A stretch of DNA of 4,340 nucleotides from a virus (lineage: Duplodnaviria; Heunggongvirae; Uroviricota; Caudoviricetes): the IMG/VR virus record IMGVR_UViG_3300029376_000268. One strand, written 5' to 3'. Made by a program: the position numbers and the translations under genes. Below the pieces are notes generated by a model. It saw only the letters and a list, made by a program, of their open reading frames with translations. It was not told the DNA's origin and searched no databases. The stretch's first letter is position 1. The number at the start of each line of letters is the position of its first letter. Shown piece after piece: positions 54 to 4,340 of this stretch.

Positions 54-1448
54 ATGCCATTTAAAAAACTCTCCCGACGCACCTTCCTGACGGCAAGCTC
101 GGCGCTTGCCTTCCTCCATACCCCTTTCGCTCGCGCGCTTCCCGCCCGACAAATCGTTAACATTAACGACTACAACCCACACGACTGGATCGCCTCATTT
201 AAACAAGCCTTCAGCGAAGGGCAAACGGTCGTCGTGCCTGCCGGATTCGTTTGTGAAAATATCAACACCGGCATCTTCATTCCTCCTGGCAAAACGTTGC
301 ACATCCTTGGAAGCCTGCGCGGCAACGGCAGAGGGCGATTTGTCTTACAGGACGGCAGCCAGGTGACAGGGGAGAAGGGCGGCCGTATGCATAACATCAC
401 CCTGGATGTGCGCGGCTCTGACTGCATCATCAAAGGGTTGGCGATGAGCGGTTTTGGCCCGGTAACGCAGATTTATATCGGCGGCAAAAATAAACGCGTC
501 ATGCGCAACTTGACCATCGATAACCTGACCGTCAGCCACGCTAATTACGCCATTTTACGCCAGGGATTTCATAACCAGATTATCGGTGCCAACATCACCA
601 ATTGTAAGTTCAGCGACTTACAGGGCGACGCCATTGAATGGAATGTAGCAATCAATGATCGCGACATTTTGATATCCGACCATGTCATCGAGCGCATCAA
701 CTGTACTAACGGCAAAATCAACTGGGGCATTGGCATAGGCCTTGCGGGAAGTACCTACGATAATAATTATCCGGAAAACCAGGCAGTGAAAAACTTTGTC
801 GTGGCGAATATCACGGGATCAGATTGTCGGCAACTGATCCATGTTGAAAATGGTAAACATTTTGTTATCCGTAATATCAAAGCTCGTAATATCACGCCGG
901 ATTTCAGTAAGAAAGCAGGTATTGATAACGCCACAGTTGCTATTTATGGTTGTGACAACTTTGTGATTGATAATATTGAAATGATTAATAGTGCCGGGAT
1001 GTTAATTGGCTATGGGGTAATTAAAGGCAAATATCTCTCGATACCGCAGAATTTCCGAGTGAATGATATTCAACTGGATAATACTCATCTTGCTTATAAA
1101 TTGCGCGGCATCCAAATCTCCGCCGGGAATGCTGTCTCCTTTGTGGCGCTGACTAACATTGAGATGAAGCCTGCGTCGCTTGAGCTACACAATAAACCGC
1201 AACACCTTTTTATGCGAAATATCAATGTGATGCAGGAATCCTCTGTTGGACCCGCATTGAGCATGAACTTCGACATGCGCAAAGACGTACGCGGTGTCTT
1301 TATGGCGAAAAAAGAAACACTGCTGTCACTTGCAAATGTTCATGCGATGAATGAAAAAGGACAAAGCTCCGTCGATATCGACAGGATTAATCACCATATT
1401 GTTAATGTGGAAAAGATTAACTTTAGATTGCCGGAACGGAGAGAGTAG
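54..1448 (+). CDS. wcaM: Colanic acid biosynthesis protein WcaM; predicted Tat-exported right-handed parallel beta-helix protein of unknown function
   Basis: 464-aa ORF with ATG start and a strong upstream SD. The N-terminus [28 protein letters not shown] has a twin-arginine motif (S-R-R-x-F-L), a hydrophobic core and an AxA site. The body has recurring N-[IL]-T / N-x-T motifs ([38 protein letters not shown]) typical of beta-helix asparagine ladders. Position directly upstream of galF matches the known last gene of the colanic acid cluster. Coordinates include the stop codon. Confidence 0.92.
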
Positions 1449-1608: not shown

Positions 1609-1614
1609 AGGTGG
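1609..1614 (+). promoter_or_regulatory. Ribosome-binding site for galF (AGGTGG)
   Basis: AGGTGG lies 8 nt upstream of ATG 1623. This supports ATG 1623 as the true start rather than the GTG at 1611 used by the ORF track. Confidence 0.6.
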
Positions 1615-1622
1615 ATGAAATA

Positions 1623-2516
1623 ATGACGAATTTAAAAGCAGTTATTCCTGTAGCGGGTCTTGGGATGCATATGTTGCCTGCCACTAAGGCGATTCCCAAA
1701 GAGATGCTACCGATCGTCGACAAGCCAATGATTCAGTACATCGTTGACGAGATTGTGGCTGCAGGGATCAAAGAAATCCTCCTGGTAACTCACGCTTCCA
1801 AGAACGCGGTCGAAAACCACTTCGACACCTCTTATGAATTAGAATCTCTCCTTGAACAGCGCGTGAAGCGTCAACTGCTTGCGGAAGTGCAGTCCATCTG
1901 TCCACCGGGCGTGACCATTATGAACGTGCGTCAGGGCGAACCTTTAGGTTTGGGCCACTCCATTTTATGTGCACGACCTGCTATTGGTGACAACCCATTT
2001 GTCGTGGTACTGCCAGACGTTGTTATCGATGACGCCAGCGCCGACCCGCTGCGTTACAACCTTGCTGCCATGATTGCTCGTTTCAACGAAACGGGCCGCA
2101 GCCAGGTGCTGGCAAAACGTATGCCGGGTGACCTCTCTGAATACTCCGTTATTCAGACCAAAGAACCACTGGATCGTGAAGGTAAAGTCAGCCGCATTGT
2201 TGAATTTATCGAAAAACCGGATCAGCCGCAGACGCTGGACTCAGACATCATGGCCGTGGGCCGTTATGTGCTTTCTGCCGATATTTGGCCGGAACTGGAA
2301 CGTACTCAGCCTGGTGCATGGGGACGTATTCAGCTGACTGATGCCATTGCTGAGTTGGCAAAAAAACAAGCAGTTGACGCAATGCTGATGACTGGGGACA
2401 GTTACGACTGCGGAAAGAAAATGGGTTATATGCAAGCGTTTGTGAAGTATGGGCTGCGTAACCTAAAAGAAGGGGCGAAGTTCCGTAAAGGGATTGAGAA
2501 GCTGTTAAGCGAATAA
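1623..2516 (+). CDS. galF: GalF, UTP-glucose-1-phosphate uridylyltransferase paralog (GalU-like, regulatory/low-activity subunit)
   Basis: Translation from ATG 1623 gives a 297-aa protein [43 protein letters not shown]..., the sugar-nucleotidyltransferase N-terminal fold with the GalU-like motif. The G-L-G-M-H-M variant (instead of GalU G-L-G-T-R-M) and the position between the wca and rfb clusters identify galF rather than galU. The track ORF 1611..2516 starts at an in-frame GTG 4 codons upstream; ATG 1623 has the better SD spacing. Coordinates include the TAA stop. Confidence 0.93.
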
Positions 2517-2554
2517 TGAAAATCTGACCGGATGTAACGGTTGATAAGAAAATT

Positions 2555-2618
2555 ATAACGGCAGTGAAGATTAGCGGCGAAAGTAATTTGTTGCGAATTT
2601 TCCTGCCGTTGTTTTATA
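2555..2618 (+). terminator. Putative structured element or weak terminator downstream of galF: long-range inverted repeat followed by a T-rich tract
   Basis: AACGGCAG (2557-2564) is the exact reverse complement of CTGCCGTT (2603-2610), extendable to about 10 bp with one G-U pair. The 3' arm is followed by gttttatat. The roughly 38-nt loop is atypical for a rho-independent terminator, so the call is tentative. Confidence 0.25.
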
Positions 2619-2689
2619 TAAACAATCAGAATAACAACGAGTTAGCAACAGGATTATCGTCAAAGTTTTCCAGGATTTTCCTTGTTTCC

Positions 2690-2774
2690 AGAGCGGATTG
2701 GTAAGACAATTAGCTTCTGAATTTTTCGGGTTTAGCGCGAGTGGGTAACACTCGTCACATCGTAGGCATGCATG
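2690..2774 (+). promoter_or_regulatory. Probable promoter region of the O-antigen (rfb) operon, immediately upstream of JUMPstart
   Basis: Established knowledge: the rfb promoter lies just upstream of the JUMPstart element in the galF-rfbB gap. I cannot pinpoint convincing -35/-10 hexamers by eye; a candidate is TTGGTA at about 2699-2704 with an A/T-rich stretch about 17 nt downstream. Exact boundaries are not supported. Confidence 0.3.
2738..2754 (+). other. Small hairpin CGAGTG-ggtaa-CACTCG in the rfb leader
   Basis: Read directly: a 6-bp perfect stem (2738-2743 / 2749-2754) with a 5-nt loop, about 20 nt upstream of JUMPstart. It could be an RNA structure in the 5' leader or a DNA palindrome. 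Confidence 0.3.
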
Positions 2775-2813
2775 CAGTGCTCTGGTAGCTGTAAAGCCAG
2801 GGGCGGTAGCGTG
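2775..2813 (+). promoter_or_regulatory. JUMPstart element (39 bp) containing the ops (operon polarity suppressor) site GGCGGTAG for RfaH-dependent antitermination
   Basis: Sequence CAGTGCTCTGGTAGCTGTAAAGCCAGGGGCGGTAGCGTG matches, as I recall it, the conserved JUMPstart found upstream of polysaccharide operons. The ops core GGCGGTAG is at 2802-2809 (extended GGCGGTAGCGTG to 2813). It lies in the untranslated leader 76 nt upstream of the rfbB start, the canonical position. Confidence 0.85.
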
Positions 2814-2888
2814 CATTAATACCTCTATTAATCAAACTGAGAGCCGCTTATTTCACAGCATGCTCTGAAGTAATATGGAATAAATTAA

Positions 2889-3974
2889 GTGAAAATACTT
2901 GTTACTGGTGGCGCAGGATTTATTGGTTCTGCTGTAGTTCGTCACATTATAAATGATACGCAGGATAGTGTTGTTAATGTCGATAAATTAACGTACGCCG
3001 GAAACCTGGAATCACTTGCAGATGTTTCTGATTCTGAACGCTATTTCTTTGAACATGCGGATATTTGTGATGCAGCTGCAATGGCACGGATTTTTGCTCA
3101 GCATCAGCCGGATGCAGTGATGCACCTGGCAGCTGAAAGCCATGTTGACCGTTCAATTACAGGCCCTGCGGCATTTATTGAAACCAATATTGTTGGTACT
3201 TATGTCCTTTTAGAAGCGGCTCGGAATTACTGGTCTGCACTTGATGGCGACAAGAAAAACAGCTTCCGTTTTCATCATATTTCTACTGACGAAGTCTATG
3301 GTGATTTGCCTCATCCTGACGAGGTAAATAATAAAGAAGGATTACCCTTATTTACTGAGACGACAGCCTACGCACCAAGCAGCCCTTATTCTGCATCAAA
3401 AGCGTCCAGCGATCATTTAGTCCGTGCGTGGAAACGTACCTATGGTTTACCGACCATTGTGACTAATTGCTCTAACAATTATGGTCCTTATCATTTCCCG
3501 GAAAAATTGATTCCATTGGTTATTCTGAATGCTCTGGAAGGTAAAGGATTACCTATTTATGGAAAAGGCGATCAAATTCGCGACTGGCTGTATGTTGAAG
3601 ATCATGCGCGTGCGTTATATACCGTCGTAACCGAAGGTAAAGCGGGTGAAACTTATAACATTGGTGGACACAACGAAAAGAAAAACATCGATGTAGTGCT
3701 CACTATTTGTGATTTGTTGGATGAGATTGTCCCGAAAGAGAAATCTTACCGCGAGCAAATTACTTATGTTGCCGATCGTCCGGGACACGATCGACGTTAT
3801 GCGATTGATGCTGAGAAGATTGGTCGCGAATTGGGATGGAAACCACAGGAAACGTTTGAGAGCGGGATTCGTAAAACTGTGGAATGGTATCTGTCCAATA
3901 CAAAATGGGTTGATAATGTGAAAAGTGGTGCCTATCAATCGTGGATTGAACAGAACTATGAGGGCCGCCACTAA
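2889..3974 (+). CDS. rfbB: dTDP-glucose 4,6-dehydratase (RmlB/RfbB), extended short-chain dehydrogenase/reductase family
   Basis: 361-aa ORF with a GTG start ([14 protein letters not shown]...). It has the N-terminal Rossmann NAD-binding motif TGGAGFIGS, the STDEVYG motif and the catalytic YxxxK (PYSASK). The C-terminal region (...[16 protein letters not shown]...[18 protein letters not shown]) is typical of RmlB. First gene after JUMPstart, as in E. coli/Shigella/Salmonella rfb clusters. Coordinates include the TAA stop. Confidence 0.95.
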
Positions 3975-4340
3975 TGAATATCCTCCTTTTTGGCAAAACA
4001 GGGCAGGTAGGTTGGGAACTACAGCGTGCGCTGGCACCTTTGGGTAATTTGATTGCTCTTGATGTTCACTCTACTGATTATTGTGGTGATTTTAGTAACC
4101 CAGAAGGTGTGGCTGAAACCGTCAAAAAAATTCGTCCTGACGTTATTGTTAATGCTGCTGCTCATACCGCGGTAGATAAGGCTGAGTCAGAACCCGAATT
4201 TGCACAATTACTCAATGCGACAAGTGTTGAAGCGATTGCAAAAGCGGCTAATGAAGTTGGGGCTTGGGTAATTCATTACTCAACTGACTACGTATTCCCT
4301 GGAAATGGCGACACGCCATGGCTGGAGACGGATGCAACCG
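3974..4340 (+). CDS. rfbD: dTDP-4-dehydrorhamnose reductase (RmlD/RfbD), 5' portion; CDS continues beyond the window end
   Basis: ATG at 3974-3976 overlaps the rfbB stop (TAATG). The frame is open to the window end, about 122 codons: [122 protein letters not shown]. It has the Rossmann G-x-x-G-x-x-G-like motif (FGKTGQVG) and YSTDYVF typical of RmlD. Absent from the ORF track only because it has no stop in the window. Confidence 0.92.
   Translation, partial: MNILLFGKTGQVGWELQRALAPLGNLIALDVHSTDYCGDFSNPEGVAETVKKIRPDVIVNAAAHTAVDKAESEPEFAQLLNATSVEAIAKAANEVGAWVIHYSTDYVFPGNGDTPWLETDAT

What the first reader, a model, noticed from the sequence alone, without database searches (positions are those of the whole stretch)
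2517..2888. Sharp GC drop at the galF/rfbB boundary marks the horizontally exchanged O-antigen cluster
Hand counts give about 60% GC for galF blocks (1861-1920, 2041-2100) and about 35-38% for rfbB blocks (2941-3000, 3301-3360), with the 372-bp leader also AT-rich. This is the classic signature of the low-GC O-antigen cluster inserted between galF and gnd, with the galF to JUMPstart interval as the recombination boundary. The serotype cannot be determined from this window, as the variable genes lie downstream.
Basis: partly seen in the sequence, partly recalled or inferred. Interest (0 to 1): 0.45.

Follow-up and report, generated by a model that had tools for sequence, protein, structure and literature searches.

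The report
Ordinary O-antigen boundary, crossover inside galF
This is the well-known start of the E. coli O-antigen gene cluster: the drop in G+C is real but much smaller than claimed, and the DNA exchange point in this strain lies inside the end of galF, not in the gap after it.

Summary
The window is E. coli wcaM–galF–(372-bp gap)–rfbB–rfbD. It is 100% identical to only two of 5,426 complete genomes.

**Observation.** They are tail values, though. Whole-gene GC is galF 50.2%, gap 40.6%, rfbB 43.1%. The step is significant and clearest at third codon positions (52.7 to 34.8%, p = 6e-6), with the change-point at the galF stop codon. It is not the strongest GC step in the window, and the deep drop (29–35%) comes only at wzx, outside the window.

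**Interpretation.** The O-antigen locus reading is correct. A JUMPstart/ops element sits at 2775–2813, and the low-GC cluster runs to gnd in the parent genome. The claimed recombination boundary is not supported. Informative sites place the crossover at 2335–2464, inside galF. The whole gap travels with rfbB, and 2335–4008 is identical to O18 strains. A second junction lies at 3837–4008, after which rfbD matches O139 strains.

**Typing.** The wzx/wzy genes are O19-like, so typing from the leader and rfbB would wrongly give O18.

**The gap.** It is not all leader. It holds a likely galF terminator, then a conserved promoter and leader region.

This is known biology and of low interest.

The parts
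54..1448 (+). wcaM, the last colanic-acid gene. GC is 46.7%. An internal composition step sits near 471 (53.6% before, 40.2% over 601-1100).
   Evidence: Annotation of the identical record; GC and change-point.
1623..2516 (+). galF, UTP-glucose-1-phosphate uridylyltransferase subunit. GC 50.2%, GC3 52.7%. The protein is identical to that of UTI89 and M1/5 although the DNA differs at 36 sites from UTI89.
   Evidence: same WP_000183053.1; TIGR01105, 687 bits.
2335..2464 (.). Crossover interval inside the 3' end of galF. To the left the window carries the M1/5-type allele (identical over 1216-2464). To the right it carries the O18/UTI89-type allele (identical over 2335-4008).
   Evidence: Mismatch maps. 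Run of 60 M1/5-type informative sites followed by 216 UTI89-type sites; max chi-square 254, with 0 of 1000 permutations reaching it.
2517..2664 (+). Distal part of the gap. It is highly divergent between allele classes (60.8% identity to the M1/5 form).
2555..2620 (+). Long hairpin (2555-2612, -30.3 kcal/mol, z = -6.0) followed by GUUUUAUAU. This is the likely intrinsic terminator of galF (inferred).
   Evidence: three divergent alleles each fold to about -30 kcal/mol, with different inner-stem sequence, and each is followed by a U-rich run. flags the inner hairpin as terminator-like. The weak Rfam MIR8001 hit is this hairpin.
2665..2888 (+). Proximal part of the gap, conserved between allele classes (84.8-100%). 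It holds the O-antigen operon promoter region and 5' leader (inferred).
   Evidence: Alignment A1; segment identities.
2682..2710 (+). Candidate sigma-70 promoter, TTGTTT-17 nt-GACAAT. Both hexamers are invariant in three alleles and the spacer varies. This is a weak match read by eye, not mapped experimentally.
   Evidence: Alignment A1. The consensus scan found no stronger site in 2620-2775.
2775..2813 (+). JUMPstart element with its small hairpin (CUGGU...GCCAG).
   Evidence: RF01707, 60 bits against a gathering score of 35, E = 1.8e-12.
2802..2813 (+). ops site GGCGGTAGCGTG, the loading site for the anti-terminator RfaH.
   Evidence: Single exact match; none found in 200 shuffles.
2889..3974 (+). 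rfbB (rmlB), dTDP-glucose 4,6-dehydratase, with a GTG start. GC 43.1%, GC3 34.8%. 100% identical to O18 strains.
3837..4008 (.). Second junction interval, at the rfbB/rfbD boundary. Identity to UTI89 and 22AR0118 ends at 4008.
3974..4340 (+). 5' part of rfbD (rmlD). Its start overlaps the rfbB stop by one base. From 4009 it is 86% identical to UTI89 and 99.9-100% identical to O139:H1 strains.

Best explanation
The feature is the 5' edge of the E. coli O-antigen gene cluster.

**Composition.** galF has genome-typical composition. The rml genes that open the cluster have an intermediate, AT-shifted composition, and the serogroup-specific genes further down are lower still. The change in synonymous-site GC coincides with the gene boundary at the galF stop. 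It is a stable property of the locus across divergent alleles.

**Exchange.** The cluster is swapped between strains by homologous recombination, with crossovers falling in conserved sequence. In this strain one junction lies inside the last 180 bp of galF (2335-2464) and another at the rfbB/rfbD boundary (3837-4008). A 1.67-kb block comprising the galF 3' end, the whole gap and rfbB is therefore shared base for base with O18 strains. Its neighbours come from other lineages.

**The gap.** It is functional DNA. It holds a galF terminator hairpin, then a conserved promoter region, then a roughly 170-nt leader carrying JUMPstart/ops. At ops, RfaH is expected to load onto RNA polymerase so that it can transcribe the long AT-rich operon.

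**Shown here:** composition statistics, gene and JUMPstart identity, mosaic junctions, and conservation of the hairpin.

**Inferred:** terminator function, promoter position, RfaH dependence, and foreign origin of the low-GC DNA.
For: **Gene identities and order.**

**Composition.**
- GC staircase in the parent locus: wca genes about 54%, galF 50.2%, gap 40.6%, rfbBDAC 39-46% (GC3 33-38%), wzx to GT4 29-35% (GC3 about 25%), gnd 50.1%.
- Synonymous-codon log-odds, his-operon-like against wzx-like: galF +0.42, rfbB -0.13, rfbC -0.45, wzx -0.83.
- GC3 change-point at 2513.
- The same step is seen in five strains whose rfbB alleles differ by up to 13%: galF GC3 53-56%, rfbB GC3 35-38%.

**Mosaic structure.**
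- Against UTI89 there are 113 mismatches in 1-2334, none in 2335-4008, and 50 in 4009-4340.
- Against M1/5 there are none in 1216-2464 and 226 in 2465-3974 (9 in galF, 94 in the gap, 123 in rfbB).
- Informative-site runs and max chi-square 254.
- Segment trees disagree. The galF 5' part equals M1/5. The galF 3' part, gap and rfbB equal UTI89 and 22AR0118. rfbD equals O139 strains. UTI89 and M1/5 share an identical rfbD while their rfbB is only 88.7% identical.

**The gap.** JUMPstart and ops. Hairpin conserved in structure across alleles.

**Published background.**
- rml genes have intermediate GC; rmlB follows the host lineage while rmlC follows the O antigen; junctions occur within rml genes (PMC3715488).
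- O-antigen switches in which galF and five upstream genes also differ; published galF GC 50.7-51.1% and wcaM GC 47.4-47.6% (PMC5359238).
- RfaH acts from leader ops sites on H-NS-bound AT-rich operons, including the O-antigen operon (PMC9765446).
Against: - Junctions are defined relative to a handful of comparison genomes. The direction and order of the events are not resolved.
- The promoter assignment rests on a weak hexamer match plus conservation. The consensus scan did not report it.
- Terminator and RfaH function are not tested here.
- Low GC alone does not prove foreign origin. The composition is equally stable in alleles about 11% apart, which would also fit maintenance by selection or mutation bias.
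Confidence: 0.85

Rival explanations
1. One reading: the gap between galF and JUMPstart is itself the recombination boundary of the exchanged cluster, so galF belongs to the backbone and everything from the gap onward to the import.
For: The distal gap (2517-2664) is the most divergent stretch between allele classes, at 60.8% identity to the M1/5 form. Allele classes therefore do change around here. The GC3 change-point sits at the galF stop.
Against: - In this strain the ancestry switch lies between 2334 and 2465, inside galF.
- In 22AR0118 the identity tract starts at 2418, also inside galF.
- The last 52 bp of galF in M1/5 carry 9 differences that go with its divergent gap.
- No comparison places a junction inside 2517-2774.
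- Published switches extend several genes beyond galF (PMC5359238).
Confidence: 0.08
2. The AT-shift of rfbB and the cluster is kept by function rather than being a fading mark of foreign origin. Examples of such function are low-expression codon use, or H-NS binding coupled to RfaH-dependent control. On this view the GC step marks a regulatory domain, not a transfer scar. This can hold alongside the main explanation.
For: rfbB alleles 7-13% apart keep GC3 at 35-38% while the adjoining galF alleles keep 53-56%, so there is no visible drift towards the genome average. Every RfaH target operon in CFT073 is H-NS/StpA-bound (PMC9765446).
Against: In Salmonella the rml blocks nearest the housekeeping flank have higher GC than those nearest the specific genes, and can reach the genome average. 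Reeves et al. read this as showing no benefit from low GC (PMC3715488). Nothing in this window tests selection directly.
Confidence: 0.25
3. The step is an artefact of chance, of block choice, or of amino-acid composition.
For: The low GC of the last 100 bp of galF (42.4%) does come from its amino-acid content, because GC3 there is still 51.5%.
Against: GC3 differs at p = 5.6e-6. Change-point permutation p is 0.0055 for all bases, and 0 of 2000 permutations reach the observed value for GC3. Codon-choice log-odds change sign at the boundary. The same step is seen in five strains.
Confidence: 0.02
4. The cluster is a mobile genomic island inserted by site-specific recombination or transposition.
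For: Compositionally distinct block with sharp ends at galF and gnd.
Against: - No tRNA gene in the 44-kb locus.
- No integrase or transposase is annotated in this strain's locus.
- No flanking direct repeats were found around the gap beyond short chance matches.
- The junctions lie inside homologous coding sequence, which is the mark of homologous recombination.
Confidence: 0.02

Closest known systems
[quoted passage not shown]
   Same: Position between galF and gnd, rmlBDAC at the 5' end, wzx, wzy and glycosyltransferases in the centre, JUMPstart upstream, and a low-GC staircase. GC values for galF and wcaM match published ones (PMC5359238). The rml mosaic, with rmlC tracking the O type, matches Reeves et al. 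(PMC3715488).
   Different: Nothing in kind. The particular allele combination is rare: the window is 100% matched in only 2 of 5,426 complete genomes.
JUMPstart / ops leader of RfaH-dependent operons (Rfam RF01707)
   Same: Full-length match well above the gathering score, an exact ops 12-mer and a small hairpin, located in the 5' untranslated region of a polysaccharide operon.
   Different: None seen. RfaH dependence itself was not tested.
O18 O-antigen cluster (for example UTI89, NU14, APEC O18)
   Same: Window 2335-4008 (galF 3' end, gap, rfbB) is 100% identical. The terminal GT4 is 97% identical and Gnd 100% identical at protein level.
   Different: Wzx is 39.5% and Wzy 24.7% identical at protein level, and rfbC DNA is 73% identical. 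This is not an O18 cluster.
O19 O-antigen cluster (O19:H7 strain 730V1)
   Same: Same gene order: rfbBDAC-wzx-wzy-GT2-GT2-...-GT4. wzx/wzy DNA identity is 93.2%; Wzx protein is 93.8% and Wzy 92.2% identical.
   Different: - The wzx/wzy identity is below the 95% or higher seen within accepted O-cluster groups (PMC4379981).
- The terminal GT4 is only 33% identical.
- There is no ISAs1 copy.
- The leader and rfbB are 93-96% identical rather than the same.

Membership tests
[quoted passage not shown] | Lies between galF and gnd | tested here: met
   Annotation of the identical genome: galF, then rfbBDAC-wzx-wzy-GT2-GT2-GT4, then gndA. galF confirmed by TIGR01105 above its cut-off.
[quoted passage not shown] | JUMPstart/ops upstream of the first cluster gene | tested here: met
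   RF01707 at 2775-2813, 60 bits. ops at 2802-2813, 76 nt before the rfbB start.
[quoted passage not shown] | Carries O-unit processing genes wzx and wzy | tested here: met
   Annotated as flippase and O-antigen polymerase. Wzy matches TIGR04370 at 103 bits (cut-off 40). Wzx gives only a weak MOP-flippase match (35 bits, below cut-off) but is 93.8% identical to a protein annotated as O19 Wzx.
[quoted passage not shown] | GC below the flanking housekeeping genes | tested here: met
   29-46% inside the cluster against 50% for galF and gnd and 52-58% for the his genes.
JUMPstart RNA (RF01707) / RfaH-dependent leader | Score above Rfam gathering threshold, with hairpin and ops core | tested here: met
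JUMPstart RNA (RF01707) / RfaH-dependent leader | Expression of distal genes depends on RfaH | not testable with these tools
   Needs genetics or ChIP. Shown for the O-antigen operon of CFT073 in PMC9765446, not for this strain.
Serogroup O18 cluster | O18-type wzx and wzy | tested here: not met
   Wzx 39.5% and Wzy 24.7% protein identity to UTI89. No megablast match of this strain's wzx/wzy to O18 genomes.
Serogroup O19 cluster | wzx/wzy at 95% DNA identity or higher, and the same glycosyltransferase set | tested here: not met
   93.2% DNA identity. Terminal GT4 only 33% identical at protein level. Threshold taken from PMC4379981.
Integrative genomic island | tRNA or attachment site, integrase, flanking direct repeats | tested here: not met
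   No tRNA in 44 kb. No integrase annotated. Only short chance repeats.

The most novel reading that the evidence does not exclude
Two readings remain open.

1. The 1.67-kb block made of the galF 3' end, the terminator, the promoter/JUMPstart leader and rfbB behaves as a portable front-end cassette that recombines onto unrelated O-antigen clusters. Here it is identical in O18 strains and in two different versions of an O19-like cluster.
2. The strain's cluster is an unnamed hybrid that makes an O antigen not in the current scheme. It combines O19-like wzx, wzy and two GT2 genes with an O18-type terminal glycosyltransferase and an O139-type rfbD.
Probability: 0.3. Interest if true: 0.3.

Novelty: already known. 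Interest (0 to 1): 0.15.

Why it matters
The value is mainly practical.

- Composition boundaries and recombination junctions are different things. The GC3 step sits at the gene boundary, while the actual crossover lies in conserved coding sequence nearby.
- Conserved front-end genes are unsafe for in-silico serotyping. Here rfbB points to O18 and rfbD to O139, while wzx/wzy are O19-like.
- The gap should not be annotated wholesale as a leader.

None of this changes the current understanding of O-antigen loci.

Tried and rejected
- **Codon adaptation index.** The Sharp-Li E. coli table is not installed in the sandbox. I used instead a log-odds of synonymous codon choice, his operon against wzx-to-GT4, computed from the parent locus.
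- **Rfam MIR8001 hit at 2551-2618.** E = 0.14, 25 bits against a gathering score of 90. Rejected as spurious; it reflects the long terminator-like hairpin.
- **Chi site as a cause of the galF junction.** No exact GCTGGTGG on either strand, and the one 1-mismatch site is within chance expectation.
- **Consensus promoter scan.** No strong sigma-70 site in 2620-2775. The promoter proposal therefore rests on conservation only.
- **NCBIfam scan for serogroup-specific Wzx/Wzy models.** Only generic families were returned.
- **Promoter-mapping paper.** Marolda & Valvano 1998 (PMC107806), on the O7 cluster, is not held. I cite no details from it.
- **Literature search for galF breakpoint reports.** It returned mostly Klebsiella and other unrelated papers.
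- **Mobile-island reading.** Rejected: no tRNA, integrase or repeats.

Full report
**What the window is.** A megablast of the whole window against 5,426 complete E. coli genomes found matches in 5,238. Only two were at 99% identity or above: strains LC-1302-2020 and MMC-J-0105, both at 100%.

The annotation of the identical record gives these features in window coordinates:

| Feature | Coordinates |
|---|---|
| wcaL 3' end | to 43 |
| wcaM | 54-1448 |
| galF | 1623-2516 |
| rfbB | 2889-3974 |
| rfbD | from 3974 |

NCBIfam models confirm galF (TIGR01105, 687 bits, cut-off 659) and rfbB (NF007490, 791 bits, cut-off 649). The finding's interval, 2517-2888, is therefore exactly the 372-bp galF-rfbB gap.

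**Checking the observation.** The four 60-bp hand counts are accurate: 58.3, 58.3, 36.7 and 36.7% GC. They come from the tails of each gene's distribution. Only 15.6% of sliding 60-mers in galF are that high and only 17.5% in rfbB are that low. The medians are 50.0% and 41.7%.

Feature means are as follows:

| Feature | GC | GC3 |
|---|---|---|
| galF | 50.2% | 52.7% |
| Gap 2517-2888 | 40.6% | n/a |
| rfbB | 43.1% | 34.8% |
| rfbD 5' part | 46.0% | 33.6% |

The step is statistically real:
- Chi-square p = 0.0018 for all bases and 5.6e-6 for third positions.
- A single change-point over 1623-4340 falls at 2414, with permutation p = 0.0055.
- A third-position change-point falls at 2513, the galF stop, and 0 of 2000 permutations reach it.

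A codon-choice log-odds, his-operon-like against wzx-like, changes sign at the boundary: galF +0.42, rfbB -0.13.

It is a 7-point step overall and an 18-point step at GC3, not roughly 25 points. Two further points reduce its distinctiveness:
- The largest step in the whole window is near 471 inside wcaM, and wcaM 601-1100 is 40.2% GC.
- The gap is no more AT-rich than the wcaM-galF gap, which is 39.1% (p = 0.81). Its AT-richness is what non-coding E. coli DNA usually shows.

**Wider context.** In the 44-kb parent locus the composition forms a staircase:
- wca genes: about 54%
- wcaM: 46.7%
- galF: 50.2%
- rfbB, rfbD, rfbA, rfbC: 43.1, 46.0, 43.3 and 39.1% (GC3 33-38%)
- wzx, wzy, two GT2 genes and GT4: 29-35% (GC3 about 25%)
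- gnd: 50.1%
- his operon: 52-58%

The 'classic low-GC cluster between galF and gnd' reading is correct. The window sees only the first, smaller step; the deep drop is at rfbC/wzx, outside it. This matches published descriptions: rml genes have intermediate GC (about 40-51%) and specific genes 28-37% in Salmonella (PMC3715488). In E. coli, galF is 50.7-51.1%, wcaM 47.4-47.6%, and the cluster is below 40% (PMC5359238). The step is a fixed property of the locus. In five strains whose rfbB alleles differ by up to 13%, galF GC3 stays at 53-56% and rfbB GC3 at 35-38%.

**Where the recombination boundary really is.** Separate searches with galF, the gap and rfbB gave discordant nearest relatives.
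- The gap and rfbB are 100% identical to O18 strains such as UTI89, NU14, APEC O18 and IHE3034.
- galF is at best 99.0% identical to other genomes, for example M1/5, an O75 strain.

Base-by-base comparison shows the following:
- Against UTI89: 113 mismatches in 1-2334, none in 2335-4008, and 50 in 4009-4340.
- Against M1/5: none in 1216-2464, then 226 through to the end of rfbB (9 in galF, 94 in the gap, 123 in rfbB).

Informative sites form three runs:
- 60 consecutive M1/5-type sites over 1244-2334
- 216 consecutive UTI89-type sites over 2465-3836
- 50 sites unique to the window over 4009-4329

The maximum chi-square is 254, between 2334 and 2465, against a highest permuted value of 21.

A third genome, 22AR0118, becomes identical from 2418, again inside galF. 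The crossover in this strain's ancestry is therefore within galF codons about 238-281, some 50-180 bp before the stop. The entire gap is co-inherited with rfbB.

A second junction lies at 3837-4008, the rfbB/rfbD boundary. Beyond it, rfbD is 99.9-100% identical to O139:H1 pig strains. The same boundary recurs elsewhere: UTI89 and M1/5 have identical rfbD but rfbB only 88.7% identical. rfbC is 68-74% identical between O types, as expected if it tracks the O antigen (PMC3715488).

No Chi site explains the galF junction. No tRNA, integrase or bounding repeats are present. The mechanism is homologous recombination in conserved flanks. Published switches show exchanged tracts reaching galF and five genes beyond (PMC5359238).

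**Typing.** The leader and rfbB point to O18 and rfbD to O139. The strain's wzx/wzy occur in only 4 of 5,426 genomes: three near-identical, plus one O19:H7 strain at 93.2%.

| Protein | Identity to O19 (730V1) | Identity to O18 (UTI89) |
|---|---|---|
| Wzx | 93.8% | 39.5% |
| Wzy | 92.2% | 24.7% |
| Terminal GT4 | 33% | 97% |
| Gnd | not computed | 100% |

The cluster is thus an O19-like centre with O18-like ends. Its wzx/wzy identity is below the 95% or higher seen within accepted O-cluster groups (PMC4379981).

**Anatomy of the gap.**
- *Terminator-like hairpin.* Positions 2555-2612 fold into a long hairpin (-30.3 kcal/mol, z = -6.0) followed by GUUUUAUAU. Two divergent alleles have different inner-stem sequences, yet each folds to about -30 kcal/mol and is followed by a U-rich run. 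I infer a galF intrinsic terminator. This hairpin also explains a spurious weak microRNA-family hit.
- *Divergent distal part.* The distal gap, 2517-2664, is only 60.8% identical between allele classes.
- *Conserved proximal part.* The proximal 2665-2888 is 85-100% identical. Within it, TTGTTT (2682-2687) and GACAAT (2705-2710) are invariant around a variable 17-nt spacer. This is a plausible but weak promoter. It would give a leader of about 170 nt. The consensus scan did not report it, and the O7 promoter-mapping paper was not available.
- *JUMPstart and ops.* JUMPstart is at 2775-2813 (RF01707, 60 bits) with the ops core GGCGGTAGCGTG at 2802-2813.

From established work, RfaH loads at ops in leader regions and lets RNA polymerase traverse H-NS-bound AT-rich operons, including the O-antigen operon of a uropathogenic strain (PMC9765446; JUMPstart motif, PMC2864571). 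This links the compositional drop to a mechanism, but I did not test it here.

**Verdict.** Everything found belongs to well-described biology of O-antigen loci. The only mildly new items are the precise four-way mosaic of this rare haplotype and the hybrid O19-like/O18-ended cluster downstream of the window.

Noticed in passing
window 54-1448 (wcaM), step near 471: This is the strongest compositional step in the window. wcaM is 53.6% GC over 54-600 and 40.2% over 601-1100 (LLR 9.8; 0 of 2000 permutations reach it). wcaM is also a patchwork relative to UTI89 and M1/5.
   Followed up: partly
window 1623-2516 (galF); densest at 2335-2516: galF is unusually polymorphic for a housekeeping gene. 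Most genomes are only 90-95% identical to this allele. There are 36 differences from UTI89 with an identical protein. The last 182 bp differ by up to 13.7% between strains. This fits hitch-hiking with the O-antigen cluster.
   Followed up: partly
L001 26365-32177 (outside the window): Hybrid O-antigen cluster. wzx, wzy and two GT2 genes are O19-like (88-94% protein identity), while the terminal GT4 is the O18 type (97%, against 33% to the O19 GT4). Its wzx/wzy have a megablast match in only 4 of 5,426 complete genomes (three near-identical, plus O19:H7 strain 730V1 at 93.2%). It may encode an unnamed O-antigen form.
   Followed up: partly
L001 30567-31073; L005 16551-17687: A 507-bp non-coding stretch of 25% GC lies between the second GT2 gene and GT4. 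It sits at the place where the O19:H7 strain carries an ISAs1 transposase. It may be the scar or junction of the GT4 swap.
   Followed up: no
window 4009-4340, continuing to L001 24873: The rfbD allele is 99.9-100% identical to that of O139:H1 pig strains and one plant isolate. It is only about 90% identical to rfbD of UTI89, M1/5 and 22AR0118.
   Followed up: yes
L004 (22AR0118) against L001, window coordinates 4009-6197: Two genomes share the same O19-like centre (99.8-100%) and the same leader and rfbB (100%), yet differ by 6-12% across rfbD-rfbA-rfbC. About 2.2 kb inside the rml block was replaced in one of them.
   Followed up: partly
window 3972-3976: The rfbB stop and rfbD start overlap by one base (TAATG), which suggests translational coupling.
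   Followed up: no
window 1611-1625: An in-frame GTG at 1611 lies four codons upstream of the annotated galF ATG at 1623. The annotated start matches the full-length galF model (1-297 of 297).
   Followed up: no
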